Source of the DNA: Marsupella aquatica
Lineage: Eukaryota; Plantae; Marchantiophyta
NCBI GenBank assembly: GCA_973895155.1
Contig: OZ316899.1
Coordinates: 11,657,775 to 11,721,774 of the forward strand
DNA: 64,000 nucleotides
Direction of reading: 5' to 3'
A model generated the notes under the pieces. That model worked only from the letters and a program-made list of their open reading frames with translations. It ran no database searches and was not told the DNA's origin. Both the position numbers and the translations under genes were made by a program. Of this stretch, positions 1-54,908 are shown one piece after another (within the stretch, counting starts at the first letter, position 1; every line of letters begins with the position of its first letter).

Positions 1-111
1 CTTTTAAGAAATTAAAAAAATTAAAAACCCTTGTATATATTGGCTTATTTATTTACATGCATCATGCCAATAACACTAACGGTGACTTTATGTGACGGGG
101 ACCCCGTCACA
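1..111. mobile_element. Probable end of an LTR (ends ...CCCCGTCACA) inserted into the family-B LTR ORF
   Basis: Homology to the family-B ORF (MCGLLALNIFGV) stops abruptly at 112. The left flank is AT-rich and ends in ACA within a perfect palindrome (90-112). The other end is outside the window. Confidence 0.45.
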
Positions 112-1984: not shown

Positions 1985-2102
1985 GTATACCCTTAGTTGT
2001 TTATGGTTTCCTTGTTTTTCTCCCCCTTATACTAGTGGTTTTATTGTATACCACCCGGTTTTACCTCTTACATGGCCTAGTGATTCCTGGCTAGACATCA
2101 CA
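112..2102 (-). mobile_element. Family-B giant LTR, 5' portion, inserted into the integrase region of gypsy family C
   Basis: Reverse complement from 2102 reads TGTGATGTCTAGCCAGGAATCACTAGGCCA, matching the solo-LTR start at 32943 (TGTGATGCCTAGACAGGAATCACTCGGCCA). The encoded peptides are colinear with 33058-35370. Confidence 0.85.
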
Positions 2103-3058: not shown

Positions 3059-3413
3059 TGTGACGCTGCCGGTACAGCGGTTAATGAGTGATTCGGTCTA
3101 ACTGCGCTTAGCACGCGCGTTAGGAGTGTCTTAGGCCGGTATTATTAGCATAACAATAGTATTTAGGTAATCATTATGGGTAGGACATCATTAGGCAATA
3201 AGGGGGAATTCAGGTTCGGATTGGCGGCGGGTCGCTATTCGCACACCCGGGTTACGAGCGTGGAGGGGCCCCTCCCTCGGGTCCGTATAACGTACTTAAG
3301 AAGCGGCCACTAACACGCGCTGACTCAGACCGGCTGAGTGGCCGGTACACCACAAGCATGAGCGGTTCAGCCTATGGGCGTCGAGGAGATGTCGGGGGAT
3401 CGAGCCCTCAAGG

Positions 3414-3420
3414 TATAAAA
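3414..3420 (+). promoter_or_regulatory. Putative TATA box of the family-A LTR (TATAAAA; also present at ~13537 in the 3' LTR)
   Basis: GGTATAAAAGGGG lies ~355 bp into the LTR and ~105 bp upstream of the LTR ORF ATG at 3522. Confidence 0.6.
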
Positions 3421-3521
3421 GGGGAGCCAACCCTTTGTAGTGCACCAGTCCATCAGTCCACGCGCCAGCTTCGACCCCAGCTCTCTCGTTCGCTCTAAGT
3501 CGCCACTACTATCTCCTCTGA

Positions 3522-6181
3522 ATGTTGCACACAATCCTCTCCAGCTCGGCCATTCGATTCTGGATGCAGTTCCTATCTACCGGAAGGCACTTGGCCGACT
3601 CATTGAAACACGCCAACCCGTGCCGATACGAAATCGAACGCGAGTACGAGAGAGCCATCCGCCTAGCAGGACGACACCACTACATCCTTAACTTTGACTA
3701 CCCGTCTTAGAGCGAGCTTTACCGACCAGCAGAGGTATCTGGGTACTTCTTCAATGGAGACAAATATATCGGTTTCTGGGAAGCATTGCTTCGGCTTCCG
3801 GACAAGGTCTTCAATATCCCGGGTACGATCGACTTGCAACGACATCACTTCGACCACATCCCTGCTCAGGTTTGGGCTATCATCAACAGCGAGTCCAGCA
3901 CTACCCGTTCGACAAGGTCATCTGCACTCGCTTTGGAGAACTTCTACCAGCACCTACAGAGCTTCATGGGAACTCGACCATCAACCAACATGACCAACTC
4001 AGTTGAACCCGTACCCGTACCCATGCAACCTTAGGCTCAACCTCAGGCTCAACCTCAGGCTCAGCTTCAGCTTCAGCCGCAGCCGTAGCCTAGCCAAACC
4101 CCACCACCGATCGCCCAGCCAGCACAAGTACGCTCCATCATCAACGCTATGGATCTTAGCGATGACGACGAGGCTACCCCACCCTTGACCAGGCGGCCCA
4201 GAAGAACAAGCGCTTAGGGGGCCGACACTATATCGTCCCCACCCCCTGCTCTGACCCCAGGAGCGGCCCCGGCAGACAACATGGTGACCATGGCCGCCCG
4301 GGCCCGTTACTAACGGCAGTGGCACTACCCAGGCCCAATCGGGAGGATGGGGAAGTGTCAGCTTCCCCGAGCCAGTCATTGGGGAAGAAGAGGAAGGAAT
4401 CCACCACAACATTCGGGTTACCGTTGGCCACGGTAGCCATAGCCAAGGTGACAATGCACCGCATGGGGGAAAACGTTCACAAAAACATCCTCCATCCCAA
4501 GCATGCGGTGTACCTGAAGACTCAGGGATTCGAGCACCTCGCCTCCCTCCACTGGAACACTTGCAGGTACTACGGGGAGGACATGACGGAGTTCGTCAGG
4601 AATTATGATGACACGCGTCAACATACTCGGCTGCAGGGAAGGAGTATGTCCCTCACGGAAGAACGGCTCGGGATGATCTTCGGGTTACCCGAAGGTGACC
4701 ATCGAGTCGAATCACGGGCTCCCGGGGGCAAGGGAGCCAAGTACCAATCTTCAAGTTTTCCCTCAGAGGGAGCAGTGGACAACGGGTTCGTGATGAAGAC
4801 CTGCCTCATCCCCGAGATAGCTGAGCGACTGGAGTTCCAGAGGTACGCCCTCCACATGATGGAACCCCGGGGGGAGATCTCCGCCGCCCAGGTTATCCAG
4901 GTCGAGAACTATCGACCTAGGAAGTGGGCGTCGTACTTCGCTAAGAAATTCCATGAAGAGATGGAGCGGCGAAGGAAGACGCTGTACATTGGCGGGAAGG
5001 CGTATTTCGCTAGCCACATCGAGATCATTCTTGAGTGGTACGCCCGGTTTGATCGACGAACCCTTCCCCGTGTCAACGTTACAAAGCTGGTCCCAGCTAG
5101 GTGGGTTTTCCCGGCCTTGGAGAGACGGCCCCAACCCGAGGCCCGAAGTCCAGCGGACACGCCAGCTTCACCCACCCCACCTCCACAAGTAGCTGTAGTC
5201 GTAACCGAGGAGGTACCGGATGGGTCGGTTGTCGCAACCGTTGATGCGACCCAACAAGCCGGGCTAAGTACAGAAGTCGATACGGCGGAGGTCTTACCCG
5301 AGCCCGGGTCTCCCAAAGACCCACCGGTGGCTATTCCGGAGAACCGGACATTGCTGCAGGAGGACACTCTAGCCCCTTCCAACGTTACGTCCCCAGGGCT
5401 GGACGTCACTGCCCCGGCCCCCGCGCGTGTTGACGTCTGCCCGTGCCCAACTCCGGACAGGCACAACCTGGACCACCTGGAACTCTTCGTACCGGGTACA
5501 TTTCTGAACGGGCTTCTGGGAGATTTCTCTCATCAAATTGCCCGGGATATCGGGGACTTCATGGCCCGAAAGGTAGCCTGTTTCTTCAATCAGGAGTTGG
5601 TTGCCGTAGTAAAGGCAGGTCGGGCCCAGTCAGAGGCCCTTCAAAGGATAGAGCGGTACCGGGTGGAGTCCGTGTACCTAAAGAACGAAGTTGCGGCTCA
5701 AGAGGCTGAGCTTCTGGAACTACGACCCAAGGTTGCAGCCGCCGATGAGTTGTTAGCAAAGGCGCACGCTCTTACCGCCCTAGCCGAACAGGCCAAAGCT
5801 GGGAACGAGGCCGAGATTACACGACTCCGGAACCAGATTGACAGTTTGAAGAATCAAACCGTCACCTGGCAGAAAGACCTGGAGGAGGCCGAGGAACGAG
5901 CCCAGCGGGATACGGCGAAGATAGCCACGCTGCAGGCCGAGGTGGCGCGGCTCCAAACCGAGGCCGAGAAGCAGGACCAGCTGGCGGGTAAACTGACGAG
6001 CGACGCCCAGCAGCTGGAGGAGGCATGTCAGGAGGCAGCAGAGGAGACGGACGCGGCGAGGCGAGAGAACGAATCTCTGCTGGACCAGGTCCAGCTCCTC
6101 AAGGCGGACAATGACAGGCTTCGAAGGCAGCGGGATGGCCGCTCCCATTCGGGCGGCTCTGGCAAGCGTGCCAGGCATTAG
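3522..6181 (+). pseudogene. LTR-encoded ~886-aa protein (N-terminal domain, PQ linker, plant-transposon-protein/PMD-like core, coiled coil), 5' LTR copy
   Basis: ORFs 3522-3710, 3786-4034 and 4319-6181 join when four TAG stops (CAG in the 3' LTR) and a 1-bp deletion near 4300 are repaired from the other LTR. Confidence 0.85.
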
Positions 6182-7092
6182 CAGTGGAGTAGGAATAGAT
6201 TAGGATTAGGACTGGCTTAGTCAGGCTCTTGGGACAGGCACCTGCCTTAGGTACAGCAGCGCTGCCATGCTGTCCAGCCTGCGTAGATTAGGATCTTCTA
6301 ATAAGACACAGTCGTTTTCCGGCCTGACTGTCAGCTTAGTTAGGACCTTAGTCAGCGAATCTTCGGCAAGAGGACACCCCGTCCCTCGTCCCTTAGTATT
6401 TAGTGCACCCCTCGGTAGAGGCAAGGGGGGCGGTTTTAGTTGCAGAGTTGGACGTCCGCGGTATGTGCGGGGAGTCCCGACCTCTGGGAATGAAAGAGTA
6501 CCAAGAGGAGGGGGTAGGACTAAGCTCGCCGGGCGAGTGCGGAGCCGGGCTCCGTTGTAGTGTGCACCCTCGGCCTTGAACCTGTTCATTCCGGGGCTGT
6601 CGGGTCAACTAAGTGTACGCATATGTTCCCTTTGTAGTAAAATCCTTTCCCATCATTTTCCTTTGTGTAAATCGAGATTGTATGCATGTGCGCGTGTATG
6701 TGTGTGGGTTTCTCGTATATGGGTGGCAGCGCCAGGCCGAACGCACTACCCGAGATGTGCACAGGGTGCAGCCTGCGGGTAAGTGGTTGCGAGCACGGGT
6801 TGAGGACCTGTATCATCGAATCTGGATCAAAGGCGGACAGCACGAAGGCTTAGAAGCCCTTAAGCCGGGGTCGATCTTGCTATCCACTAAGGTACGTTCC
6901 GGCGGCGAAACACAAACCATACCTAGGAGGTGTCCGTATTTAGCAGTATGCGCACTTAGCGCTAGTTTACAAGAATAAGGTGCATTACGTGCTTCCCTTC
7001 CTGCCCGAACACTCAGATTTACGAGGGATGTGCCCGTCTAAGCTGAAGTCTGAGTTAAGGCCGCAGCCGACGACGTGACATAGCCTTTGTTT

Positions 7093-7111
7093 TGGTGCTA
7101 GATGGAGGGGG
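7093..7111 (+). other. Putative primer-binding site (TGGTGCTAGATGGAGGGGG), 12 nt after the 5' LTR; primer tRNA not identified
   Basis: First TGG-initiated tract downstream of the LTR end and upstream of gag. Confidence 0.5.
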
Positions 7112-7203
7112 CACTCTACATATCATAGAGGGGAGACATGTGCGTATTCACCTAGGTAGGATACATCAGGACGTAGTACTAACCATCGCATTTATATGAG
7201 TAA

Positions 7204-10200
7204 ATGCCCGTCACTCGTTCTCAAGCAGCTTACTTGAGGAGATTGACCAACGAACGAGAAAGTGCAACCACGACAAGTTCCGATTCTTCGGGCTCGGAGG
7301 ACTCGCAATCGCCCTGACGTATGAACATACCCCCGGGACCTTCGGGGTCCGGTTCGACCGGTCCTGCTGCGGTTCCTCCGCCACCACCACCACCACCGCC
7401 ACCTCCACCACCACCTATGGCAGCCGCTCCACCGATGGCCCGCGCTGCTCAAGCTCCTCCACAAATATTGCAACGATCGCGATTTCATTATCGACCTTTC
7501 AAGGGGCGTCATGGGGACGATCCGGATGAATGGTTGGATGAGTTTGAAGCCACTGCTAAAGCTAATGGGGAAGACGCCATTAAGCTAACCGTCCTCCCGG
7601 GAGTGATGCGGGGAGAAGCTCGTCCATGGTACAACTCGTTGCCACCCGGGACTACATGGGCACAATTCCAAGCTGCATTGCTGCAGGAGTTTCGTGCCAT
7701 TGGATCAGAATAGCGTTCTCTATTAAAGATTGGCCAGCTTCGCATGGGAAAGAAGGAGTCCCTACGGAAGTTCATTCAGAAGTTTCAGAAACTTGCGGCC
7801 AAGATCCGACCCAGGCCGGGAGATGCGCTCCATCTTACATGGTTCCTTCATGGTTTGCCCACGAATATGCAATTCTGGGTACGCCAGAATAATCCAATTT
7901 CAATGCAGGCGGCCATAGCGTGCGACGAAACTTACCGGGAGTCCACCTATAACTCCCGGCGGAGCCAGCGAGCACGCCGCAAGAAGGGTAAGTACGAGAC
8001 GTTCAGTGACAGTGACTCCGAATCGGACGACGAGAGGAAGAAGAAACGAAAGAAGAAGAAGAAACATCGTTCGACCTCGTCCAACTCGGAGACGGAATCC
8101 AGTTCGGATTCAGCTTCAAGCACCGGATCCTCTACCTCCAGTTCATCAGGAAGTGACTCGGAGAGCGGAAGCTGGAGCAAAAAGAAGAAGAGACGAGTGA
8201 AGAAGGAGGGGAAGATCAAACCCCGGGCGTGAAGAACGATACCAGATCCAAAGGCTGCCGAAGCAGACAAGCTGAACGAAATCACGGATCGACTCAAAGC
8301 ACTGTCAGTACATCTTGCGGAAAAGCCGGTGGAGAAGAAGCAGCCATCTGAGATTCGAGCCCATGCGTGGTGTTCAAAGTGCTTCCAATCCGGCCATGTG
8401 GTGCAGGAATGCCCAAGGTGGAAGAACCGAGTTCACCAAGTAGAGCTGGATGATGTTGACAACCCGGGTCCCGAATCGGAGTCCACGGAGTATTTCTTTG
8501 AGGACCCTCTTGATTCCGTGTACCAGATTTCAACGATAGGTCCGCGTAATTTAGCGGGTAGAACTGCGTACCCCTACCCAAACAATGGCCGGAGTTTCCA
8601 GGTTATCAGTAACCCGAGCATCCCTCCTAAGCCAGGGATTTGGCGATCCCCGGTTTGTTATAACTGTGAAAAGCCAGGACACTTTGCGAGGGAATGCACC
8701 GAACCAAGACGTCAGGGAGATGGCCGAGGCACCCCACTATGTCAAGTCTGCAAAACGGAGGCTCATTCCACGGCCAACTGTCCGTTGGTAATCGCTGCTC
8801 GAATGAGCGCAGCTAGACCGGCCCAGGCTGGACCGGCCACGAGCGATGCAGTCATCCAAATGATTGTTGTAGAATGGCAAGATGACAACACCAAGTGGGT
8901 GAATCTGGTGGACGTGGCGGAACACCCTAATCCATCTGACGAGGTTGAGTGCTATCGTGTGTCAACAAGAGCTGAACGGAAGGAAGAGAAGCAGGAGGAG
9001 AAATGCAGGAAAAAGCAAGATACTACTCCGGTGCAGCCAGCGATAGATATACCCCCGGAGAAGGACGATGACTACCGACGGGAAAACCCGAAGCTATTTT
9101 TCCCCCGCATCGAAGAATTGGTAAAGAAACAGCTGGAGGCTTACGAAGCTCGGGAATACCAGAAGGCAATCGATAAGGACATCAAAGCAGCCGAGACAGC
9201 CCGGCGACAGGAGCAAGAAAAGCAAGATAAACAAGAGGAAGCCAAGCAACAGCCGAAGGAAGAAACGAAGGAGGACTATGATATTAAGGAGGACGTGAAG
9301 AGTTGCCCGGTTACAGCGACGGTGGGGCAACTGCTGCAGAACAACCCACAGTACAGACGGCAACTAAGGGAGTTGCTCATGGGTCGCCGAAGGAGGAGAC
9401 TACCCCGAGTTGGGATCGCGGACTGCAACATGATATACGAGGACCTTGGAGCGCCGGACATCTCGATCGAAATTAATAATTGTACCATCAAGATGGTTCT
9501 TGTAGACGGAGGAGCGGGAGTCAACATCATGACTGAAGAAACGTCAGTCAAGTTAGGATACCTCACGTATCAACCCACAGCCCGAGCTATCAGATTAGCA
9601 AACGGGGCAAGGGTCCTCCCATTAGGCACGCTCACACGAGTGCTCACTCTGGTGGGAGGGGTGGAGTTCTATCTCAACTTCCTAGTTATGAGGCCGGTTC
9701 GTCCCTCCTCTTACCCGGTTCTTCTGGGCAGGCCGTGGCTGTACGGTGGCCGCGTAGTCACGGATTGGGGAAAGAAGGAGCTACGGTTCGGGGAACCCAC
9801 CGTACGGGTATCATGGGCAATGGACGATTATCAGGGAGAAACCCCACAAGGACCCGAGGAATATGATTCGGAGACCTCGGAGGAAGAGGAACTCAATATG
9901 ATTGAACTCATCTCGTCCCTGTCCGAGGAAGATGTCTTCGGAGTTGAAGCAACCCGCAAAACACATCTCCTAAATTACCCGAGGGCTGCCATTGAGTCCA
10001 CCCCAAGCACATCTACTGTCGGGGATGAGGAAAAGCACGAACAACTCGTCGAGACGGAGGACATGGCTCCAACTAAGCAGGGAGCCGAGGCTGCTTCTAC
10101 CATTGCAGAGCCTCGTAACCACGAACCAGTCCAACAACCGCCCGAGGCCGAAAACTCGAGACCGAGACATAAGAAACGAGTCTCATGGGATCCGTCCATT

Positions 10201-13200
10201 CCGCATTTGGAGGAAGTAACTCCAATCCCGAGACCAATCCCGGTTCCACCCATGTACGGAGGAGTTCGGTTAGCTGAGCTTGATGCAAGCCTGGACCCGA
10301 GCCTACGAAACCAGGTTGAAGTCATCAGGAAGGAGCACTACCGGAAGTACACTATTGGGATGGACAAATCTTTTAACCTGGGCCACGCTCTGACAGGGGA
10401 GGCTGAAAAATCCATCCAAGCTTTGCTCAAGGAATATGAAGATGTGTTTGCATGGAGTCATCATGATTTAACAGGCGTCTCCCCCGAGTTGGGAGAACAC
10501 ACGATCGATCTGAACCTAGGAGCCCATGCGGTACGGCAGCGACAACATCGCATGAACCCGAGGTACTCCATCTTAGTGAAGGAGGAAATTGATCGTCTCC
10601 TCGCCGCCAATATCATCTACCCGGTAATGGCCAACGACTGGGTCTCTCCCATTGTCATTGTACCAAAGAAGGGAGGTACGGATGGAAAACCTAAGATTCG
10701 TATTTGTCAGGACTACCGTAAGCTGAACAACGCAACCCGAAAAGACCATTACCCATTACCATTCAGGGATATGGTTCTAGATATGGTAGCCCGAAATGAA
10801 ATCTATACATTTCTTGACGGGTATTCAGGTTATAACCAAATCTGGATTCGCCTCGCGGATCAGCTCAAAACAACTTTCACTACGGAGTGGGGGACTTTCG
10901 CATTTCGGAGGATGCCTTTCGGTCTGTGTAACGCCCCGACCATGTTTCAGTGCCTTATGATGAATATCTTCCACGATTTCCTACGGGAATTTCTGGAGAT
11001 ATTTATCGATGACTTTGCCATCTTCGGAACCGTTGCCATGCACCCCGAACACCTAAGACGAACGTTGCAACGATGCCGAGATGTTAACCTCAAACTACAT
11101 CCCACCAAATGCTTCTTCGGGGTAGAGGAGGGGGTGTTACTCGGGCATCGTGTGTCCAAACGGGGCATTGAGGTGGACCAAGAGAAAGTTGCGGCCTGGA
11201 TGGCAGTGGTGTTCCCCGTGGATCAAAAAGTAGTACGATCCTTCTTGGGCTGCGTAGGGTATTACCGTCGGTTCATTAAAGATTTTGCTAAAATAGCTTT
11301 GCCCTTAACAGAGATGATGAAAACGGACGCGGTGATCGAGGAGACCCCAAGGAGACGGGTTGCTTTCGAAGAACTCCGTAAAAGACTCACCACCGCACCT
11401 ATCATGGTCACTCCAGACTGGAACAAGGAGTTCCACGTGTATGTCAACGTGTCAGGGTTCTGTATCGGGTCTGTGCTTAGTCAGCTTGATACGGACGGAC
11501 GCGATCACCCCATCTACTTCGCTAGCCGTCAATTATTCACAGCCAAAAAAAATTATTCCCCCACGGATCGAGAGGCACTGGGCATAATCTACTCATGTAA
11601 GAAGTTCCGGCACTATCTGCTCGGCTACAAGGTCATCTTCCACACGGATCACGACAGCCTGAAGTACATGGTCAACAAAGCAGACATAACGGGACGGATA
11701 GCCCGTTGGGTGCTACTTCTCCAGGAATTTAACTACGAAGTTTGGGTTCGGCCAGGAAAGGCACACCTCAATGCCGACTTCTTTTCACGGCTGGACGGCG
11801 TACCAGTCGATCAGCCAATTGATGATATTTTTCCGGATGAGGAGTTGTTCCACATAGGGGAGGGGACACCAACGTGGTACGGCTCAATAATCACCTTCCT
11901 TTTAACGGGCCGCATCCCTGACGGCATCAATCAGGAGGCCGCCGTTGTGTTTTTACGGAACGCCGGGCCTTACGTCATGATACAGGGTCACCTACATAAG
12001 GAAGGTATTAATGGAAAGTTACGACGCTGCTTAGAGTATAAGGAGATGCTTATCGTGATGCGGGCCCTGCATGAAGAAGAAGCTGGAGGCCATTTCGCGG
12101 TGGTCACGACAGCCCGAAAGATTCTGGACTCGGGGTATTGGTGGCCTACGTTGCATCGGGATGTACAGCGCTTCATTAAGGGCTGTGACTTGTGTCAGCG
12201 AGTTGGGGCCCCAAGGCGGGCTCATCATCACCCGCTCACATCTGTGCTTCCATTGGCACCATTCGAAAAATGGGGAATTGATTATATCGGGTCGTTTACT
12301 CCCGTTACCCGAAGGCGAAGATGCAGGTACATCCTACTAGCTATTGATTACTCCACCAAGTGGGTCGAAGCGCGGGCTACGGTAAAGGACGACGCCGCAA
12401 CCAGTGCCAGATTCTTATACGAACAGATTTTCACCCGATTCGGCCCGCCCTTAGAATTGGTAAGCGACCGTGGAACCCACTTCCTCAATGACACCGTAGT
12501 CCAGCTTACGGAGCATTACCTAGTCAAGCACCGCAAGACTACCCCGTATCATCCTAAAGCCAACGGGATGGCGGAGAGAGCAAATGGTATCATTGGGAAG
12601 ATCCTCAACAAAACAGTAGCTGCGCACAAAACGGATTGGGATGATAAGTTGTACGCAGCGGTGTACTCGTATAATCTAGCTTACAAAACTACTACGAGTC
12701 ACAGCCCGTACTTTCTTGTGTTCGGCCAACATTCGTTGGTGCCCGTCGAGTTTGAAGTACACACTCCACGGGTCAGCATTCGGGATCGCTTACCTGAATC
12801 TGAAAGTTCGTCAGACCGAGCTTATCAGATTGAAGCCTTGGAAGAAGCATGGCTACTAGCAGCTCGACATGCCGTGAAGAAACAGGCAACTTTGAAGAAG
12901 CAGCACGACAAAGGACTACGGAGGGTCGACGTCGTGGCAGGCGTCTAGTCCTTCTATACGATAGTAGGTACATGCAGTTTCCAGGGAAGCTTCATACCCG
13001 GTGGTTAGGGCCCTTCCTTGTCAATCAGATCTACCGTAACGGATCTTTGGAGCTTGCGACGTATGCCGGCGATTTACTCCCCACGCGAATCAGCTACGAT
13101 CGTGTAAAAAAGTACCACCATCAAGATGACGACGCCGAGAGTGATGTTCGTGAGGACGCTTCACAATTAAGCAGGGAGCTATGTGACGCCGCCGGTACGG

Positions 13201-13214
13201 CGGTTAATGAGTGA
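7204..13214 (+). pseudogene. gag-pol: Family-A gag-pol polyprotein (Gag, 3 CCHC knuckles, protease, RT, RNase H, integrase)
   Basis: Single frame from MPVTRSQ (7204) with three stops (7315, 7711, 8230) and one frameshift near 12945. Motifs: LVDGGAG, FLDGYSGYNQI, FIDD, HHCC, GIDY/SDRG/ERAN, and the Athila-type VLLYDSR..FPGKL..RWLGPF. Confidence 0.95.
13165..13181 (+). other. Polypurine tract region (AATTAAGCAGGGAGCTA)
   Basis: Purine-rich tract directly abutting the 3' LTR start. Confidence 0.6.
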
Positions 13215-16200
13215 TTCGGTCTAACTGCGCTTAGCACGTGCGTTAGGAGTATCTTAGGCCGCTATTATTAGCATAACGATAGTATTTAGGTCATCATTAT
13301 GGGTAGGACATCATTAGGCAATAAGGGGGAATTCAGGTCCGGACTGGCGGCGGGTCGCTATTCGCACACCCGGGTTACGAGCGTGGAGGGGCCCCTCCCT
13401 CGGGTCCGTATAATGTACTTAAGAAGCGGCCACTGACACGCGCTGACTCAGACCGGTGGAGTGGCCGGTACACCACAAGCGTGAGCGGTTCAACCTATGG
13501 GCGTCGAGGAGACGTCGGGGGATCGAGCCCTCAAGGTATAAAAGGGGAGCCAACCCTTTGTAGTGCACCAGTCCATCAGTGCACGCGCCAGCTTCGACCC
13601 CAGCTCTCTCGTTCGCTCTAAGTCGCCACTACTATCTCCTCTGAATGTCGCACACGATCCTCTCCAGCTCGGCCATTCGGTTCTAGACGCAGTTCCTATC
13701 TACCGGAAGGCACTTGGCCGACTCATTGAAACACGCCAACCCGCGCCGATACGAAATCGAACGCGAGTACGAGAGAGCCATCCGCCTAGTAGGACGACAC
13801 CACTACATCCTTAACTTTGACTACCCGTCTCAGAGCGAGCTTTACCGACCAGCAGAGGTATCTGGGTACTTCTTCAACGGAGACAAATATATCGGTTTTT
13901 GGGAAGCATTGCTTCGGCTTCTGGATGAGGTCTTCAATATCCCGGGTACGATCGACTTGCAACGACATCACTTCGACCACATCCCTGCTCAGGTTCGGGC
14001 TATCATCAATAGCGAGTCTAGCACTACCCGTTCGACAAGGTCGTCTGCACTCGCTTCGGAGAACTTCTACCAGCACCTACAGAGCTTCATGGGAACTCGG
14101 CCATCAACCAACATGACCAACTCAGTCGAACCCGTACCCGTACCCATGCAACCTCAGGTTCAACCTCAGGCTCAGCTTCAGCTTCAGCCTCAGCCGCAGC
14201 CTAGCCAAACCCCACCACCGATCGCCCAGCCAGCACAAGTACGCTCCGTCATCAACGCTGTGGATCTTAGCGATGACGACGAGGCTACCCCACCCTTGAC
14301 CAGGCGGCCCAGAGGAACAAGCGCTCAGGGGGCCAACACTATATTGTCCCCACCCCCTGCTCTGACCCCAGGAGCGGCCCCGGCAGACAACATGGTGACC
14401 ATGGCCGCCCGGGGCCCGTTACTATCGGCAGTGGCACTACCCAGGCCCGATCGGGAGGATGGGGAAGTGTCACCTTCCCCGAGCCAGTCACGGGGGAAGA
14501 AGAGGAAGGAATCCACCACTGCATCCGGGTTACCGTTGGCCACGGTAGCCGTAGCCAAGGTGACGATGCACCGCATGGGGGAAAACGTTCACAAAAACAT
14601 CCTCCATCCCAAGCATGCGGTGTACCTGAAGACTCAGGGATTCGAGCACCTCGCCTCCCTCCCCTGGAACACTTGCAGGTACTACGGGGAGGACATGACG
14701 GAGTTCGTTAGGAATTATGACGACGCGCATCAACATACTCGGCTGCAGGGAAGGAGTATGTCCCTCACGGAAGAACGGCTCGGGATGATCTTCGGGTTAC
14801 CCGAAGGTGACCATCGAGTCGAATCACGGGCTCCCGGGGGCAAGGGAGCCAAGTACCAATCTTCAAGTTTTCCCTCAGAGGGAGCAGTGGACAACGGGTT
14901 CGTGATGAAGACCTGCTCCCCGAGATAGCTGAGCGACTAGAGTTCCAGAGGTACGCCCTCCACATGATGGAACCCCGGGGGGAGATCTCTGCCGCCCAGG
15001 TTATCCAGGTCGAGAACTATCGACCTAGGAAGTGGGCGTCGTACTTCGCTAAGAAATTCCATGAAGAGATGGAGCGGCGAAGGAAGACGCTGTACATTGG
15101 CGGGAAGGCGTATTTCGCTAGCCACATCGAGATCATTCTCGAGTGGTACGCCCGGTTTGATCGACGAACCCTTCCCTGTGTCAACGTTACAAAGCTGGTC
15201 CCAGCTAGGTGGGTTTTCCCGGCCTTGGAGAGACGGCCCCAACCCGAGGCCCGAAGTCCAGCGGACACGCCAGCTTCACCCACCCCACCTCCACAAGTAG
15301 TTGTAGTCGTAACCGAGGAGGTACCGGATGGGTCGGTTGTCGCAACCGTTGATGCGACCCAACAAGCCGGGCTAAGTACAGAAGTCGGTATGACGGAGGT
15401 CTTACCCGAGCCCGGGTCTCCCAAAGACCCACCGGTGGCTATTCCGGAGAACCGTACATTGCTGCAGGAGGACACTCCAGCCCCTTCCAACGTTACGTCC
15501 CCAAGGCTGGACGTCACTGCCCCGGCCCCCGTGCGTGTTGACGTCTGCCCGTGCCCAACTCCGGACAGGCACAACCTAGACCACCCGGAACTCTTCATAC
15601 CGGGTACATTTCTGAACGGGCTTCTGGGAGATTTCTCTCATCAAATTTCCCGGGATACCGGGGAGTTCATGGCCCGGAAGGTAGCCTGTTTCTTCAATCA
15701 GGAGTTGGTTGCCGCAGTAAAGGCAGGTCGGGCCCAGTCAGAGGCCCTTCAGAGGATAGAGCGGTACCGGGTGGAGTTGGTGTACCTAAAGAACGAAGTT
15801 GCGGCTCAAGAGGCTGAGCTTCTGCAACTACGACCCAAGGTTGCAGCCGCCGATGAGTTGTTAGCAAAGGCGCACGCTCTTACCGCCCTAGCCGAACAGG
15901 CCAAAGCTGGGAACGAGGCCGAGATTACACGACTCCGGAACCAGATTGACAGTTTGAAGAATCAAACCGTCACCTGGCAGAAAGACCTGGAGGAGGCCGA
16001 GAAACGAGCCCAGCGGGACACGGCGGAGATAGCCACGCTGCAGGCCGAGGTGGCGCGGCTCCAAACCGAGGCCGAGAAGCAGGACCAGCTGGCGGGTAAA
16101 TTGACGAGCGAAGCCCAGCAGCTGGAGGAGGCATGTCAGGAGGCAGTAGAGGAGACGGACGCGGCGAGGCGAGAGAACGAATCTCTGCTGGACCAGGTCC

Positions 16201-17187
16201 AGCTCCTCAAGGCGGACAATGACAGGCTTCGAAGGCAACGGGATGGCCGCTCCCATTCGGGCGGCTCTGGCAAGCGTGCCAGGCATTAGCAGTGGAGTAG
16301 GAATAGATTAGGATTAGGACTGGCTTAGTCAGACTCTTGGGACAGGCACCTGCCTTAGGTACAGCAGCGCTGCCATGCTGTCCAGCCTGCGTAGATTAGG
16401 ATCTTCTAATAAGATACAGTCGTTTTCCGGCCTGACTGTCAGCTTAGTTAGGACCTTAGTCAGCGAATCTTCGGCGAGAGGACACCCCATCCCTCGTCCC
16501 TTAGTATTTAGTGCACCCCTCGGTAGAGGCAAGGGTGGGTTTTTAGTTGCAGAGTTGGACGTCCGCGGTATGTGCGGGGAGTCCCGACCTCTGGGAATGA
16601 AAGAGTACCAAGAGGAGGGGGTAGGACTAAGCTCGCCGGGCGAGTGCGGAGCCGGGCTCCGTTGTAGTGTGCACCCTCGGCCTTGAACCTGTTCATTCCG
16701 GGGCTGTCGGGTCAACTAAGTGTACGCATATGTTCCCTTTGTAGTAAAATCCTTTCCCATCATTTTCCTTTGTGTAAATCGAGATTGTATGCATGTGCGC
16801 GTGTATGTGTGTGGGTTTCTCGTATATGGGTGGCAGCGCCAGGCCGAACGCACTACCCGAGATGTGCACAGGGTGCAGCCTGCGGGTAAGTGGTTGCGAG
16901 CACGGGTTGAGGACCTGTATCATCAAATCTGGATCAAAGGCGGACAGCACGAAGGCTTAGAAGCCCTTAAGCCGGGGTTGATCCTGCTTTCGACTAAGGT
17001 ACGTTCCGGCGGCGGAACACAAACCATACCTAGGAGGTGTCCGTATTTAGTAGTATGCGCACTTAGCGCTAGTTTACAAGAATAAGGTGCATTACGTGCT
17101 TCCCTTCCTGCCCGAACCCTCAGATTTACGAGGGATGTGCCCGTCTAAGCTGGAGTCTGAGTTAAGGCCGCAGCCGACGACGTGACA
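13182..17187 (+). repeat. Family-A 3' LTR (4006 bp)
   Basis: Copy of 3059-7080, followed by TSD CAACT. Confidence 0.97.
13645..16289 (+). pseudogene. LTR-encoded ~882-aa protein, 3' LTR copy
   Basis: ORFs 13714-14928 and 14964-16289. Only one early TAG (TGG in the 5' LTR) and a 4-bp deletion near 14916 break the frame. Confidence 0.85.
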
Positions 17188-20416: not shown

Positions 20417-20547
20417 GTCTCCAATAACCGAATCTGCCCGCAGTTGACCCGTTGGGCACGTTGAAGCACTAAGTCCCCACAAAAATCCGTTAAGATTTTT
20501 GGATTTTGACCTCGCACAATCCCGGCCCGGTGTCTATGCTGGCAATC

Positions 20548-32629: not shown

Positions 32630-32942
32630 TTGTTAGTCAGATTCCTAGCTACCAATGATGTAATTGACCAAATGGATTGTCGAGGTTCAGTCCTGACTCA
32701 GAAGAATGCAGCCTGGTGCTGCTAGCAGAGTCCACTAATTCCAACAAAAATTGGTCCAAAACTACACTTGATTCGCCCCGTGTACCCAACTCCACTTCCT
32801 ATTGCTGTACAATGTCTTCCCGTATCAAAGCAACATCCAACGCAATCTACAGCAAGGTCCTTCTAGCCTGCTTCCAGCGCACGAGAAGTCTAATACAAGA
32901 GCAGTACGTACACAGGAAAGGGCCCACGAGAGGCAGGCAGCC

Positions 32943-35900
32943 TGTGATGCCTAGACAGGAATCACTCGGCCAGTTAAGTGGGTAAAGCAGGAATGCACCC
33001 TGGAAACACCTTAGTATAGGGACAAAACAAGGAAAATATAAACAATTAGGGGCGACTATGGAACCCGGGCCGAGGCCGGAGGTAAGGACGTTGGGGGTGA
33101 AAACTCAATTAGGGTTAGGGCGCGCTAAGCGTCGGCGGCTAGGAAGGATCAACGGGAGGAAGGACCGGAAGAGGAGAGGGGTAAGGAGCACTTGCAGGAG
33201 ATGGTGGCTCATTTGCGAGCACGAACTAGGCAGACGACTACGAGAGGCCAACTACTGTCAGCTGCTTAGGCAAGCACTCGGAGAGAGAGTAGATACCAAC
33301 GATCGACCTAAGGAGGGTATGAGCAACGTCAATCAAGCGACACATTTCTGGGGATGCCTGTTCGAACAGGCAACTGAGTACATCAAGACTTACGAGGACG
33401 AGGAATCAGAAAGGGCAGCTCGAGAACGACAGGAGCTCGCTCGATTGTGGGAGCTGCAGAAGACGGCTTTCTTAGGAGGCGAACTCATCAAGGACGAGTT
33501 CTTGTGGACTCCTACTTCCAATCAGCTCGACGATCTTCTATTTTGCGAAGACAGAATCATCGGCATTCGAGAGGCCATCAAGAACTGCAACGACATACAC
33601 TGGGAATTGAAGGGTAGCACGGAAAGGTGGACCCAGGCAACGGTGCTAGGAGAAACCTCCACGGCAGCAGAGATGAAGAGGAAGGGAGCCATCAACGATG
33701 AAGCCACCCCGACAAAAAGAACGAGGTCGGCGGCACCAAAGAAGCCAGCCGACCAGCAGAGCAGGAGGCAGGGAGAAGCCGAAGAGGAGGAGGTCGATCC
33801 CATCAATGCCATTCCAACTAGGGATGACACCTAGAAAGGCTGGGCGGCAACCCTACCGGTGGAGGTGCAACTACATTTTGCACGGGAGGAGGATGCATGC
33901 TTTACGGCCATGCAGACCACGAAGTACCAAGGCTTCATGGCCGGATCCGGCTTAGAGGCCTTTGTAAGATTACCATGGCTGAAGCTGGAGGTACCGGATT
34001 CAGACCTATTAGAATTCGTGGGGTCATGGGAACCCGAGACCAATTGCACGAGGATATATGGGAAGGATTTCTATCTTACTCCCAAGGTGATTGCCGAAGT
34101 GTTTGGCTTGCCGATAGGCAATAAGACCAAAGTTGATACCAGGAAGACCTTGCCTGACAAGGAGTTCCGGTCGTTCCCCGGGCCATCAACAAAGAATGGC
34201 TTCTTCCGGAACACCTGCACCAACCCACACATAGGAGAGATGATCGACTTCTTGCGGGTGACCATGCACTGTAACTTGCCGAGGGCAGAGATCGGCAAGG
34301 CACAGGTCTATCTGGCAGAGAGGCCAGACCCAAGCCGGGACTACAACGGGTACCTCCTCAACCAATTGAAGAAGATCTTAAAGGAGGAGCAGCAGGTAAT
34401 CGGCATGGGGAGCGTGTCGCGACTTGGCTATCACATGCCGCTGTTGTGCCGGTATGCCAGAGGACAGACCTTTGCCCCAGTACTTCCCCTGCAGGTAAGG
34501 GCACCCGAGGAAGCTCCAGCACCGAGGCCGGTAGCAGAGAAGCCTCAACCACCTGTTAGCCCTACGATCGAGCAGGTGTTTAGGCCAAGGAAGGAAGACT
34601 TGCCGATGCAGCAACCTGGCATGCAGAATCTGCTGAAACTACTGGAGAAAGAAAAGAGATCGGCATCGGCAACGACAACGGCAACGGCAACAATGCAGGA
34701 CACTACTCCAGAGGTAGGCCTACACCGGCTTACAAGGGAAAACCCTTTTACTGGAGACAAGGAGAGAATCAGGCCATAATCCAAGCCGGGTGTTCGAATG
34801 TACGTGGGAGTCTCAAGCTCTGAATCTGAGGCAAAATTGCCTGAAGCTCCTACCGACGAAGAGGAGAGGGAGAAGCCGGAAGTCCAAGAAGTAGAGGAGG
34901 CAGTGGAGGACTGCAGCCATGATAACTCCGGCTATGGGTCGGACCATCACGTTCCAGGAGTAAGGACCTGTGGCCGGTTTATCCCCACACTTCCAAGGGT
35001 AGTACGAGGGGACCCCAACCAGCAAAGTAGCCCTGAGTCTCCCCCACCAGATGTTGCTCCCCCGAGCTTTGACGGCATAAAACAGACGGCGCAGGAATTT
35101 CAGGAGCGAATCAGGCAGGCAGAGGAGGCAGCCCTGGCTAGGGAAAAGGATTTGCCAGGAGGAGATTGGCCAGAGGACATCAAGCGGCTAGCCAAAAAAG
35201 GAAGCAAACCTCTAGCCACGATTGAAGAGATCCGCAAGACGGCTTGGGAGCAGAGGCCGCGGTGGATGATGCCGATGACTTCTACTTCCTCCACCTATGG
35301 TAAAGATAGAGCCATGGAGTACGGGGAGATGTGTGGAGAACTGGCGCTCAGCATCCTTGGGGAGGAGTTGGAGCAGGGACCCTTTTTCCAGAGGGAGATG
35401 TTGGAGAAGCGCCAATTAGAAGAAGCGGTGGCCTTGGAAAGAAGCAAGAAGGACGAGGTCATCCGTCGGCTTAGGGAAAGGGAAGCCGAAATCAAGGACC
35501 TGAGGGTGGCCAAGAAAGCCCAAGATGAGCTGCGGATTAAGCGACATGAGCTAAATATCATGCAAGGCCAGTTGGATACCGCACAATCTGATAATCGGAT
35601 GATCGAGAATCTACTAACGCGGACCCAAGGAGAGTTGGCCGATACGATCAAAGAGAGGGAGAAGTGGAAACGAGAGCTGAGGAATGCAGAGGAGGCCCAC
35701 ATAACAGCCAACAACCGGGCCATGGCGGAGACCCAAAGAAAGGAATGGGCGTTGAAGGAGGAGCTCCAGAAAATCCGCGGAGCCCTTGAGCAGAAGGAGG
35801 CCGAGTTAGGGAAATCCTATCAAGGGATTATGGCGTTGTAGCAGGAGCTTGCGTCCCTGACGGCCAGCTTCAAGGCCGACCTACGGGAGAAGGACGAGAT

Positions 35901-37624
35901 GCTCGATCAAACTTACGCCAAGATGAACCAGATGGAGTCTGTCATCATTGCAGAGCTCGACAAGGAGCTAAGAGCAACCCGGGAGGAGAGGGCTACCACC
36001 AAGAGGGAATTGGAGGAAGCCAAAAACGAGCTACAAGAGGCGCGCAAGGACCTGGATGAGACCCAGGAGGAGTTGGAGGAAATCACGAGGAAGATGGAGA
36101 ACCTCTAGCGGCGGGCCGACAACCAAACAGAGCGGCTGAAGAAACAAGCCGCAGTGTTTAAGTGCTTGTCTTCATCAGGCCCAACTCCAATTGGGGCAAC
36201 CAAGTTACCAGGAGAGGTACTGGCCGAAGAACAAGCCGCGCCACCTGCACCAGTGCCGGAAGTAGGTGGGAAGGGGAAGGGACCAGCTGCCGAACCATAA
36301 AAGAAGAAGAAGCGGAAACCTTCAGGGTCAAGGAGTAATACGACTCCACAGGCCGTGGTGACCAAGGAGGTAGACCCAGCACCAACCTCTGGCATGAACA
36401 CGGCAATAGATCCCGCTATCACCAAAGGTGGGGATGGTGCGGCCCAAGCCGAACTACTCAGTAATGAGGCCGGTATCCCAGATCCGCCTCTTGAGCAGGC
36501 CGGGGAGACCGTAGCCGAGGCTGAGGCCGTAGCCGAGAATGATTCCCGAGCCGATGCCGATGCCGATGCCGATGGTGGACCCAATCAGTCCGATGGAGAG
36601 TTGACTCAATCAAGGGCAGGTAATCTGTCAGAAAACGAACCTACGGCAGTGGCTGAGGAGGAAGCGTTGGGGGCGTCCATTGAGGATCCACCACCGGTGT
36701 CGTGACGGTGCAAGGGCGCCGTTCCTTTTAGGAAGGGCGGACGTGGAGGGAGGAGGTGTGAGTGGGCAGGGCGGGCGCTGATCTCCAAGTTTAGGATTAG
36801 GATCAGGACCAGAAGCGGCCCTGACACTTAGCTTAGTGGGATTGCGGTTCCACTGGTAGGAGCAACACTTGTGCTCCTGCCTTGCTATACATAGGTAGAT
36901 CCGGGCAAGTAGATTACTGTTAGGTAGATTAGGCTTACGCTGCAAAGAATTAGGCGGATCCACTACCAGGATAAGTACCTGGGCAGCGGGGAGCTCAGGG
37001 CCTCTTCTTTAGCAAGTTTTTAGTTTGCACCAGCCGGGCTGGGATCAAGTAGTAAGAGAAGCTCTCGGTTAGTCATACAGTGACCCTTGTGTATATTCAT
37101 GTTTCCTCATGCCTAAGAGCCGAATAGAGTTGGCCTCACGGCTTAGTTCGCAGAGCTTGTGTATGAGATGTACTGTTTGTATGGCCAGTGCATGGTATGA
37201 CTTAGTCAGAAGGAGTCATTTTGCTATTTGTGTGTCGCATTAACTTGTGTGAAGAGTGCCCACATCAACTAATAGAGGAAGGAAAGTAAGCAGGGGAGTG
37301 AGAGTTGGATGTGTCGAGCTGAGAGAGGTCTTAGCGGCTTAACCAAGCCTATTGGGGATCATTCCGGCGGCGGAATCCAAACATACCTAACAAGACGGAG
37401 GGGAAGACAAGGGAAGGCCTAGATTAGGCCGGCTACGTATCTCATGACCCGATGAAGGATCTGTCCAGTATATGTGTGTAAAATGTTAATAGTAGTAGTA
37501 GAAGAAGGTTAGCAGCGTCCCATGCCGCTAAGCCGCGGAAACGGCCTCGCCAAGCGCGAAACCTGCGGGAATCGGCTTGAGCTGGGGGGTTTCTTGGGTT
37601 TAGGGAGCCATGGGACGCACCACA
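32943..37624 (+). mobile_element. Family-B solo LTR (4682 bp) inserted in the LINE 5' UTR
   Basis: TGTGATGC...GCACCACA termini (7/8 inverted match), flanks CAGCC/CATCC (5-bp TSD with 1 mismatch), no gag or pol inside, and 5' end matches the second copy ending at 2102. Confidence 0.85.
33058..36705 (+). pseudogene. Family-B LTR-encoded protein, up to ~1215 aa (start uncertain): conserved core, long coiled coil, acidic tail
   Basis: Five ORF-track pieces all lie in one frame, separated by stops at 33832, 34777, 35839, 36106 and 36298, with no frameshift. Confidence 0.88.
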
Positions 37625-38524
37625 CATCCATAGCCCGGACCTTCAAGAGCACCCCGTCCCCTCAGTTCTCTCAGTCCCTTCAGTTCAAATTCCAAAATCT
37701 GAACCAAGTACTAAGGAGATTGATTATTTAGTTTTACAATGTGAAGCCAAAGGGGTTTTAACTATGTACATTTTTATTGGTTGGTTTTTTCAAGCTTGCA
37801 AACAATTAAAAAATACAAGCATTTTGATATAAAACACTGATATTTCTTTGACAAACATCAAAATGGTTACTAAATGACATCTCCCTTTGTATTTTGGTTT
37901 TTTTACGTTCAATATTTATGGCATGGCGTCCAAAAAATTACGTTGCTTTTGCCACAAATAGGAATGTGCACGCTTGTTATTGTTAAAAGTATGATCATTC
38001 CTGTTTGTGGCTGGTTGTGATGATGTGGCGCAACCTCGTGACATGGAATTTGCAAGAGACCTCTCATGGGGTCCATAACTAGGTAGCCACAAGCTATGTG
38101 CAAGGGGGCACATAGTTTTGATACAACATTAAAAATATTTTCAAAGACATGCTAAAGGGAGGCCTGAGTACGAAAGTGCACAAACCAAATTGAACAACCC
38201 GAAAATTTTACAAGTTGCCACGCAACCTAGGCTCCGTCTAGACTAGGCGCCCTAACGCTTGTACTCCAGTGTCAGCTACCGAACACGGTTCTTTTCCCTC
38301 TTTTCCATGAAAGTCATCCTAGTACTATTGGCCAACTTCACCACCCCATCGCGCTTCTCCTTCTTTCCCGTGAAAGACATGCTTGTGAGCTTCGGAAACA
38401 GATCAGAGAGTAACAACTTTGCATAGGAACTCGCGGTCCATAGCGAACCGCTGTGACACCGATTGCAGTTTTGCCTCTTCTCTTGCAGGGCTAAGTGCAG
38501 AGTTGTTGGGGGGAATGTGCAGAT

Positions 38525-49109: not shown

Positions 49110-49510
49110 ATGTTATTACACAGAACGGCTCAAAATGGGTCTACATCTCTTATTAACATTCTGATGTTATTACACAGAACGGCTCGAAATAGTGTATGCA
49201 TCTATCACTACATGAAGATTAAGATGGCTCTTCCCACAACCCACTAAGTATTTCTCTTGCTATACCTAGAGTAAGGAAAGATGTTGTCTCAAAATAGTGT
49301 CTGCATTATTACTACATGAAGATTAAGATGGCTCTTCCCACAATCTACTAAGTGTTTCTCTTGCTATACCTAGAGTAAGGAAAGATGTTGTCTCAAAATA
49401 GTGTATGCATCTATTACTACATGAAGACTAAGTCACTAAATGTACTAAGATTTAGAAACCACAACCCACTAAATGTTTCTCTTAGACCTAGAGGACTGAA
49501 AGATGTTGTT
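49110..49510. repeat. Local tandem duplications (~105-bp unit x2-3 plus a ~27-bp duplication)
   Basis: CTACATGAAGATTAAGATGGCTCTTCCCACAA...CCTAGAGTAAGGAAAGATGTTGTCTCAAAATAGTGT is repeated. Confidence 0.8.
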
Positions 49511-52304: not shown

Positions 52305-52386
52305 GAGTATGGTATGCACTCCCTTCTGGGGTGAGTGCATACCATACCCGGATGGGAGTGCCTCTACCATGGGTATATGGTGGAGG

Positions 52387-52432
<46 letters not shown>

Positions 52433-54823: not shown

Positions 54824-54908
54824 GAGTATGGTATGCACTCCCTATCTGGGGTGAGTGCATACCACACTCACAACAGATGGGGACCGCTACCATGGGTATA
54901 TGGTGGTG

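What the first reader, a model, noticed from the sequence alone, without database searches (positions are those of the whole stretch)
32943..37624. 4.7-kb solo LTR of a second family that is essentially a gene cassette (~1200-aa ORF)
Seen: the element has TGTGATGC/GCACCACA ends and a 5-bp TSD but no gag or pol. About 78% of it is a single reading frame, broken only by five stops explainable by single transitions, with no frameshift. A diverged second copy (112-2102, minus strand) has the same terminus and protein. Inference: LTR-LTR recombination leaves a promoter-ORF-terminator unit, so the protein could still be supplied in trans after the replicative genes are deleted.
Basis: partly seen in the sequence, partly recalled or inferred. 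Interest (0 to 1): 0.85.

Follow-up and report, generated by a model that had tools for sequence, protein, structure and literature searches.

The report
Decayed solo LTR carrying a gene
This 4.7-kb stretch is most likely the lone end-repeat (solo LTR) left by a plant jumping gene of a kind whose end-repeats are, unusually, mostly one long protein-coding gene; the gene copy here is broken by five stop codons, so it is a relic and would not supply the full protein.

Summary
32943-37624 has TG...CA ends. One frame has 5 internal stops, against 21-50 stops in the other five frames, and shows no frameshift. The "5-bp TSD" matches at only 4 of 5 bases (CAGCC/CATCC). The real ORF most likely starts at ATG 33319, so it covers 72% of the unit.

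The best support for "LTR" is in the same window. A complete Ty3/gypsy element (3060-17187, perfect TSD CAACT) has 4.0-kb LTRs, each holding a homologous ORF of about 886 codons in the same layout: TATA box, ATG 108 nt later, and a tail of about 0.9 kb after the stop.

The gene is real. dN/dS between the two B-type copies is 0.23. A library of 1.84 billion proteins holds 73 relatives, and every relative that carries an organism name is from a liverwort. One intact 906-aa relative is colinear with the element-A ORF. No Pfam family, solved structure or confident fold was found.

This copy is a pseudogene, so the "supplied in trans" idea is not supported for it. No genome or reads could be searched, so a paired-LTR family-B element and expression remain untested.

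Verdict: a new variant of accessory-ORF-bearing gypsy elements, with the gene inside the LTR.

The parts
32943..37624 (+). Family-B unit, read as a solo LTR (4682 bp), TGTGATGC...GCACCACA
   Evidence: No gag/pol, no internal long repeats. Flanks are unlike the internal regions of elements A and C.
32938..32942 (.). Left flank CAGCC (imperfect TSD partner)
   Evidence: 4 of 5 bases match the right flank
37625..37629 (.). Right flank CATCC (imperfect TSD partner)
   Evidence: chance of at least 4 of 5 is 0.016
33035..33041 (+). TATA-like ATATAAA(C), 92 nt into the unit. A weak candidate promoter element, not conserved in copy 2.
33319..36705 (+). LTR-borne ORF (1128 codons plus TGA), pseudogene with internal stops at 33832, 34777, 35839, 36106, 36298
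33328..33624 (+). N-terminal family domain (weak, colinear match to relatives' N-termini)
   Evidence: 16 bits, aa 4-102
33880..34500 (+). Core domain of about 200 aa shared with the element-A LTR ORF and 73 database relatives
35419..36132 (+). Predicted coiled-coil region (Pro/Gly-free, heptad-like)
   Evidence: sub-threshold coiled-coil Pfam hits
36706..37624 (+). Non-coding tail of 919 nt. Holds a TATA-like TATATG near 37468 and an A/T-rich stretch at 37475-37500.
   Evidence: function inferred only
96..2102 (-). Second, diverged B-type copy. Its 5' terminus is at 2102 and it runs off the window start. It is nested in the integrase of gypsy element C.
3060..7080 (+). 5' LTR of complete gypsy element A. 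TATAAAA at 3414, ATG at 3522, ORF to 6181 (stop at 3708, 1-nt frameshift near 4300).
7081..13182 (+). Internal region of element A: gag, zf-CCHC, protease, RT, RNase H, integrase (frame 7318-12948, two stops)
13183..17187 (+). 3' LTR of element A with the same ORF (about 13645-16289; 4-nt deletion and a stop)

Best explanation
32943-37624 is most likely a decayed solo LTR of a Ty3/gypsy family whose LTRs each carry a long accessory gene; the frame, its five stops and the homologous ORF inside both LTRs of a complete element in the same window are shown, while the solo-LTR origin is inferred.

How it would work (inferred). In such families every LTR holds a gene. In element A a TATA box lies 108 nt upstream of the first ATG. 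An ORF of about 886-1128 codons follows. It encodes an N-terminal domain, a core domain of about 200 aa, a linker and a coiled coil. A tail of about 0.9 kb then runs to the LTR end. Because the gene lies between the LTR termini, reverse transcription copies it to both ends of each new insertion, and LTR-LTR recombination leaves one copy behind.

I favour (about 45%) the gene lying in a long U3, with its own promoter, upstream of a conventional short R-U5. That would resemble sag in the MMTV LTR. Such an arrangement could arise in one step if the polypurine tract moved upstream of a 3' extra ORF.

The protein was kept by selection within the element lineages. It is predicted to be an oligomerising accessory factor acting in trans on the element's own cycle; its biochemistry is unknown.

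The copy at 32943 is dead. It has 5 stops, decay of roughly 3-4%, and a mutation pattern that fits methylation-driven C-to-T change.
For: (1) Termini are TG...CA, with an 8-nt end motif like element A's (TGTGATGC vs TGTGACGC). The 5' end is reproduced base for base in a second copy at an unrelated site.
(2) Flanks match at 4 of 5 bases.
(3) Element A is a true LTR element. Its LTRs are 4.02 kb and 96.9% identical, the TSD CAACT is present on both sides, a purine-rich tract precedes the 3' LTR, and gag-pol lies between the LTRs. Both LTRs contain the ORF.
(4) The A and B ORFs are homologous: 27% identity over 228 aa, E 2e-19. The layouts are parallel. The ATG is 462 nt into the A LTR and 377 nt into B, and the tail after the stop is 899 nt in A and 919 nt in B.
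(5) In A, TATAAAA at 3414 is followed by the first ATG at 3522.
(6) The gene is real. dN/dS for B vs copy 2 is 0.23 (517 codons, bootstrap 0.16-0.31). Differences by codon position are 0.34, 0.27 and 0.51. A translation-free DNA alignment shows the same asymmetry. The control, A's two LTRs, gives pN/pS 0.6 from 12.5 synonymous and 23.5 nonsynonymous differences.
(7) The library holds 73 relatives at E<=1e-3. Intact P0090 (906 aa) is colinear with A's LTR over aa 4-899.
(8) A and B fall in separate well-supported clades of the family tree: A+P0090 97/91, B+P0003+P0017 100/100. The LTR location is therefore old or has arisen more than once.
(9) The decay pattern fits. A's LTR pair differs by 86 transitions among 107 mismatches, at rates of 6.6% at CG, 7.6% at CHG and 0.8% at CHH.
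Against: No paired-LTR family-B element was seen, and none could be looked for. The TSD is imperfect. Only one B-type 3' terminus is in view.

Five stops with no frameshift is mildly odd. With A's own mutation spectrum, about 4 indels would be expected alongside 5 stops (P roughly 0.01-0.05, based on only 4 observed indels).

The promoter and terminator are motif-level inferences. B's TATA-like motif is weak and not conserved in copy 2. The U3/R/U5 borders are unknown, so the U3 placement is a preference and not a result.

No function can be assigned. There is no Pfam hit at threshold, both AlphaFold models have pLDDT 32-35, and no relatives appear among solved structures.
Confidence: 0.7

Rival explanations
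1. The element is the same, but the gene lies in R/U5 and not in U3. A single LTR promoter (the TATA box near the LTR's 5' end) would start all transcripts, so the ORF would be the first cistron of the genomic RNA, upstream of the primer-binding site. It would be the positional equivalent of the 5' extra ORF (ORF0/ORF1) of Retrosat2- and Ogre-type elements, drawn into the LTR by a downstream shift of the PBS.
For: The only canonical TATA box in A's LTR is at nt 355, and the ORF's ATG is the first ATG after it. Gao et al. 2012 (PMC3485330, passages read) predicted in silico a short U3 (about 243 nt) and a 2-kb R for the 3.2-kb Retrosat2 LTR. 5' extra ORFs ahead of gag are common in Ogre/Tat/Athila elements (PMC6317226, passages).
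Against: It needs a minus-strand strong-stop DNA of about 3.6 kb, or a multi-kb R. It also needs gag-pol to be translated some 4 kb downstream of a long ORF. Only about 77 nt lie between the predicted start site and the ATG, which leaves little room for a former R-U5-PBS. TATA-like motifs also exist 130-160 nt before both LTR 3' ends.
Confidence: 0.3
2. It is not an LTR. It would be a pseudogene of a dispersed host or DNA-transposon gene family, with TG/CA ends and near-TSD arising by chance. Alternatively it is a unit of another integrase-using element class.
For: The TSD is only 4 of 5 bases. Two Riccia relatives carry partial DDE_Tnp_4 (Harbinger-type) matches below threshold. No B-type internal region is in the window.
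Against: The homologous ORF lies inside both LTRs of a proven LTR element with the same layout and end motif. The 5' end is identical in a second, independently inserted copy nested in another element's integrase. Harbinger elements make 3-bp TSDs (recalled).
Confidence: 0.1
3. It is a one-off capture (transduction) of a host gene into an LTR, carried along as a passenger with no role for the element.
For: Extra ORFs of plant LTR elements are heterogeneous and often thought to be acquired independently (PMC6317226, passages).
Against: Two families only 27% identical in this protein both carry it in the LTR, and they sit in different clades of the family tree. The ORF was under purifying selection between the B-type lineages. 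Many paralogues exist in liverwort assemblies.
Confidence: 0.08

Closest known systems
Extra ORFs (eORF/aORF) of plant Ogre/Tat/Athila-type Ty3/gypsy elements, e.g. Retrosat2/RIRE3/RIRE8 ORF0 and Ogre ORF1 (PMC3485330, PMC6317226, PMC7264820; passages read)
   Same: A non-chromovirus-looking gypsy element: no chromodomain was found. The LTRs are very long (4-4.7 kb). It has a sense-strand accessory ORF of unknown function that evolves faster than pol. The LTR ends resemble Retrosat2's (...GTGACA). The ORF has weak language-model resemblance to the PMD, ATHILA ORF-1 and Transposase_32 group found in such ORFs.
   Different: In the passages read, those ORFs are placed in the internal region or upstream/downstream of the polyprotein. 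Here the whole ORF lies between the LTR termini, is present twice per element, and survives in a solo LTR. No significant sequence match to any Pfam eORF domain was found. No second (Tat-type) RNase H was found in A's pol.
The LTR ORF (sag, superantigen) of mouse mammary tumor virus
   Same: A protein-coding ORF lies entirely within the LTR and is therefore duplicated at both ends of the provirus. The phrase 'LTR ORF' in the searched library leads mainly to MMTV papers (listing only).
   Different: It is a vertebrate retrovirus with a much shorter ORF (recalled, about 320 aa). No Pfam family of any kind, MMTV sag's included, matched here. Whether the ORF here lies in U3 is untested.
Pfam PF20167 Transposase_32, PF10536 PMD and PF09331 DUF1985 (plant transposon-associated domains)
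   Same: They are the nearest leads for the core domain. Atlas feature scores are 0.82. Transposase_32 is the most recurrent non-coiled-coil Pfam hit among relatives: 4 of 77, best E 0.0058.
   Different: All hits are far below gathering thresholds. The window's own proteins gave 0 hits even at E<=10. Membership is not established.
Giant solo LTR carrying two genes in a flatworm
   Same: A multi-kb solo LTR that carries coiled-coil protein genes said to be under selection.
   Different: It is from another kingdom and has two small genes instead of one long one. No sequence relation was tested.

Membership tests
Solo LTR of an LTR retrotransposon | 5'-TG...CA-3' termini with a short inverted repeat | tested here: met
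   TGTGATGC...GCACCACA; 7 of 8 bases are inverted-complementary
Solo LTR of an LTR retrotransposon | Direct target-site duplication of 4-6 bp | tested here: inconclusive
   CAGCC vs CATCC, 4 of 5 bases; chance 0.016. Element A has a perfect CAACT.
Solo LTR of an LTR retrotransposon | The same sequence occurs as paired direct repeats flanking gag-pol elsewhere in the genome | not testable with these tools
The feature is met only for the related family A.
Solo LTR of an LTR retrotransposon | Termini reproducible in independent insertions | tested here: inconclusive
   The 5' terminus is reproduced in copy 2 with a different flank. Copy 2's 3' end is outside the window.
Solo LTR of an LTR retrotransposon | No gag/pol and no internal terminal repeats within the unit | tested here: met
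eORF-bearing Ogre/Tat/Athila (OTA) gypsy elements | [quoted passage not shown] | tested here: not met
   In element A the ORF (3522-6181; 13645-16289) lies inside the LTRs. No extra ORF lies between the LTR and gag or between pol and the LTR.
eORF-bearing Ogre/Tat/Athila (OTA) gypsy elements | RT/RH/INT phylogenetic placement in OTA; an additional RNase H for the Tat clade | tested here: inconclusive
   Pfam finds only RT_RNaseH/RT_RNaseH_2, no second RNase H and no chromodomain. No reference set was available for a phylogeny.
MMTV-type LTR ORF | ORF wholly inside the LTR | tested here: met
MMTV-type LTR ORF | ORF lies in U3 and is expressed from LTR or upstream promoters | not testable with these tools
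   No RNA data; only TATA motifs
Pfam Transposase_32 / PMD domain proteins | Match at the family's gathering score | tested here: not met
   0 hits for window proteins at E<=10. 4 of 77 relatives match below threshold.

The most novel reading that the evidence does not exclude
In a clade of liverwort Ty3/gypsy elements the LTR is itself a gene. Each LTR is an autonomous promoter-ORF-terminator unit encoding a conserved accessory protein of about 900-1100 aa. Every insertion then delivers two gene copies, and every LTR-LTR recombination leaves a free-standing gene copy. Young solo LTRs could keep feeding the family, or the host, with the protein after the replicative genes are gone. This would be a built-in route for dispersing, and possibly domesticating, a transposon gene.
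Probability: 0.3. Interest if true: 0.8.

Novelty: new variant of a known kind. Interest (0 to 1): 0.6.

Why it matters
LTRs are treated as non-coding control regions. Annotation pipelines mask them, and surveys of extra ORFs describe those ORFs relative to the polyprotein. An LTR that is two-thirds coding sequence, kept by selection in at least two deeply diverged families, changes several things:
- how such elements should be annotated;
- what a solo LTR can be, namely a dispersed gene copy and not just a promoter;
- how accessory genes can be gained, in one step, by a shift of the PPT or PBS.

It also defines an undescribed protein family. It has 73 representatives, and every one that carries an organism name is from a liverwort. 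The family is a candidate transposon accessory or counter-defence factor in a plant lineage whose transposons are little studied.

The specific copy in the finding is only a relic.

Tried and rejected
- Whole-genome search: no genome is held.
- The search for homologous proteins: three searches gave only P0001.
- Metagenome scans by profile and by the B 5'-end pattern, and a viral-contig scan: nothing.
- AlphaFold2, twice, on 3- and 4-row alignments made before the relatives were found: pLDDT 32 and 35. No fold search was run on these models.
- PDB sequence and profile searches: only macro-domain or coiled-coil noise.
- Pfam at E<=10 on the window domains: nothing.
- Complex prediction for a coiled-coil homodimer: never accepted, because the queue was full or time-locked. 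Oligomerisation rests on sequence features only.
- Idea that gypsy element C (minus strand, cut by element A) is the internal part of a family-B element with copy 2 as its 3' LTR: rejected. Copy 2 cuts C at the start of its integrase, and no B-like sequence lies on C's 5' side.
- Literature: six searches for LTR-borne ORFs in plants or liverworts and one for ORFs upstream of the PBS found no description. Subscription journals (e.g. Steinbauerova 2011, Genetica), Repbase and paper supplements were not seen, so 'not in print' is not established.
Full report
SETTING. The window is plant nuclear DNA packed with nested retroelements.
- A LINE lies on the minus strand, with RT at 27607-29043, endonuclease at 29535-30077 and a DUF4283 ORF at 30599-32215.
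- Three Ty3/gypsy elements and some genes (RING, PHD) lie further along.
- No whole genome is held for the window.
- Everything below therefore rests on the window itself, protein libraries and the literature.

THE OBSERVATION. The unit 32943-37624 (4682 bp) starts TGTGATGC and ends GCACCACA.
- The five bases outside each end are CAGCC and CATCC. They match at 4 of 5 bases and are not a perfect TSD; the chance of at least 4 of 5 is 0.016.
From 32986 to 36705 there are five internal stops (33832 TAG, 34777 TAA, 35839 TAG, 36106 TAG, 36298 TAA) and a terminal TGA at 36703.
- Over 33319-36705 this frame has 6 stops while the other five frames have 21-50. Base composition predicts 48, so P is about 1e-14.
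- There is no gag or pol inside and no long internal repeat.
- The flanks resemble neither internal region of the other gypsy elements.
- The second copy exists. It lies on the minus strand from 2102 downwards, 72% identical to B nt 1-1149 and 68% to nt 2024-2420.
- Its first bases align with B's first bases (20 of the first 22 identical), and its flank is unrelated.
- It lacks about 560 bp (B aa 370-547), has a frameshift and three stops, and runs off the window. Only the 5' terminus is therefore reproduced.

WHERE THE ORF STARTS.
- From codon 112 on the pattern is coding: 0.23, 0.14, 0.39, then 0.13, 0.15, 0.36.
- Codon 112 is ATG 33319. It aligns with Met1 of database relatives. A small profile of relatives' N-termini matches B from aa 4 to 102 (16 bits, single-sequence E 4e-7).
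- The ORF is therefore 33319-36705, 1128 codons, 72% of the unit.

WHY 'LTR'. The strongest evidence lies 16 kb to the left. Element A (3060-17187) is a textbook LTR retrotransposon.
- Two direct repeats of 4.02 kb are 96.9% identical.
- Its ends are TG...CA, the TSD is a perfect CAACT, and a purine-rich tract sits before the 3' repeat.
- Between the repeats lie gag, zinc knuckle, protease, RT, RNase H and integrase.
- Both LTRs contain a long sense ORF homologous to B's: 27% identity over 228 aa (E 2e-19), plus a coiled-coil match.
- An intact 906-aa protein from a public assembly (P0090) aligns colinearly with the 5' LTR. Residues 4-266 match 3543-4298 and residues 275-899 match 4304-6175.
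- The ancestral A ORF therefore ran from ATG 3522 to 6181, about 886 codons and 66% of the LTR.
- The 5' LTR copy now has one stop (3708) and a 1-nt frameshift near 4300. The 3' copy is continuous there but has a 4-nt deletion and a stop.
- The layouts of A and B match. A has a short upstream region with a TATA box (GGTATAAAAGG at nt 355 of the LTR), and the ORF's ATG is the first ATG after it, 108 nt downstream. B has only a weak ATATAAAC at nt 92.
- After the ORF comes a tail of 899 nt in A and 919 nt in B.
- The end motifs are alike: TGTGACGC vs TGTGATGC.
- A unit with integrase-type ends and no internal repeats cannot be made by reverse transcription on its own. A solo LTR left by LTR-LTR recombination is therefore the economical reading (inference).

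THE GENE IS REAL AND OLD.
- Between B and copy 2, 517 aligned codons give dN 0.37 and dS about 1.6 (saturated). dN/dS is 0.23, bootstrap 0.16-0.31.
- As a control, A's two LTRs have only diverged since insertion. They give pN/pS 0.6 from 12.5 synonymous and 23.5 nonsynonymous differences.
- A profile of the core domain, searched against 1.84 billion representative proteins, found 73 at E<=1e-3 (29 at <=1e-10).
- Of 30 clusters looked up, 13 carry an organism name: 11 Calypogeia fissa and 2 Riccia sorocarpa. Both are liverworts, from different classes.
- Long relatives share the architecture N-domain, core domain, linker and coiled coil.
- In a maximum-likelihood tree of 47 core domains, A groups with P0090 (97/91) and B with P0003 and P0017 (100/100). 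These clades are separate on an unresolved backbone (43 of 90 matched rows were left out because they covered fewer than 150 profile positions).
- Two deeply separated lineages thus have the gene inside the LTR.

WHAT THE PROTEIN IS. This is unknown.
- There is no Pfam match at any threshold for the window proteins.
- Among 77 family members the only recurrent non-coiled-coil family is Transposase_32 (PF20167), in 4 of 77, all below threshold.
- The protein atlas gave only weak leads (0.82-0.85) to streptophyte hypothetical proteins and to DUF1985, PMD, Transposase_32 and ATHILA clusters.
- These are the domain families that Neumann et al. [quoted passage not shown] That is a lead and not a membership.
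- Two structure predictions, made before the relatives were found, are unusable (pLDDT 32 and 35).
- PDB searches found nothing specific.
- The C-terminal third is Pro/Gly-free and heptad-like.

HOW IT DECAYED.
- A's LTR pair differs at 107 positions, 86 of them transitions, and has 4 gap events.
- Transitions hit 6.6% of CG sites, 7.6% of CHG sites and 0.8% of CHH sites. This is the signature of deamination at methylated cytosines.
- Under that spectrum the B ORF would gain about 4.0 stops for every 3.4 indels.
- Five stops and no frameshift is therefore somewhat unusual (P roughly 0.01-0.05, from only four calibrating indels) but not enough to call for another explanation.
- Five stops imply roughly 3-4% decay.

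HOW IT LIKELY WORKS. The following steps are inferred. Being inside the LTR, the gene is duplicated at every retrotransposition and is retained in solo LTRs. Two layouts fit the sequence.
- (a) Gene in a long U3. It would have its own promoter, upstream of a conventional short R-U5. Weak TATA-like motifs lie 130-160 nt before both LTR ends. This keeps strong-stop DNA and the gag leader normal and resembles sag in the MMTV LTR.
- (b) One upstream promoter, with the ORF as a leader cistron upstream of the PBS. This would be a displaced version of the 5' extra ORF of Retrosat2- or Ogre-type elements. Gao et al. predicted in silico a short U3 and a 2-kb R for Retrosat2 (PMC3485330, passages).
- I favour (a) at about 45% against 30% for (b). 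RNA end mapping would decide.

A promoter-ORF-(terminator) unit surviving recombination is compatible with both layouts. This copy, however, carries five stops and cannot supply the full protein, and expression could not be tested.

COMPARISON WITH WHAT IS KNOWN.
[quoted passage not shown] These are PMC7264820 (term search found no LTR-located ORF), PMC11963269 (passage) and PMC6317226 (passages).
- The phrase 'LTR ORF' in the library leads mainly to MMTV sag papers (listing only).
- A liverwort genome paper describes gypsy lineages but no such feature (PMC12885004, passages).
- I found no description of an LTR-borne ORF in plants. Subscription journals, Repbase and supplements were not seen.

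VERDICT. The finding is a real, decayed solo-LTR-like unit dominated by a once-functional accessory gene. The general feature, a gene inside the LTR in two diverged families, is the interesting part, and it is shown directly only for element A.

Noticed in passing
window 2103-3005 and 17195-18614, minus strand: A third Ty3/gypsy element (C) is split by the insertion of element A into its RT domain. Its parts are a zinc knuckle at 18614-18294, RVT_1 at 17599-17195 and RNase H at 3005-2523. Its integrase is cut at its very start by the 5' end of B-type copy 2 at 2102. This is a three-deep nest of gypsy elements.
   Followed up: partly
window 3060-7080 vs 13183-17187: Differences between the two LTRs of element A are 80% transitions (86 of 107). 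They concentrate about 9-fold at CG and CHG cytosines (6.6% and 7.6% of sites) against CHH (0.8%). There are only 4 indel events. This is a clean in-genome read-out of methylation-type mutation.
   Followed up: yes
window 7081-7110: The likely primer-binding site of element A (TGGTGCTAGATGG...) starts 12 nt after the LTR end, where 0-5 nt is usual. The tRNA was not identified.
   Followed up: no
window 19566-19907 and 21690-22008: Inverted repeat arms of about 340 nt (82-92% complementary) enclose about 1.8 kb, including a 246-aa acidic ORF (19793-20533, minus strand) with no Pfam match. This is possibly a DNA transposon inserted upstream of element C's gag.
   Followed up: no
window 52305-52849 and 54824-55393: Direct repeats of about 550 bp, 92% identical and 2.5 kb apart, with a shared start (GAGTATGGTATGCACTCCC). 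They may be the LTRs of a small non-autonomous element. An ORF between them (53894-54634) has no Pfam match.
   Followed up: no
window 49183-49509: A short tandem array of a 104-bp unit (about 3 copies, 82-95% identical), just downstream of a RING-finger gene (47444-48760).
   Followed up: no
proteins P0068 and P0072 (Riccia sorocarpa): Two relatives of the core domain are annotated as DDE Tnp4 proteins and carry partial, sub-threshold Harbinger-type DDE matches next to the domain. The domain may therefore also travel with DNA transposons, or the gene models may merge neighbouring genes.
   Followed up: no
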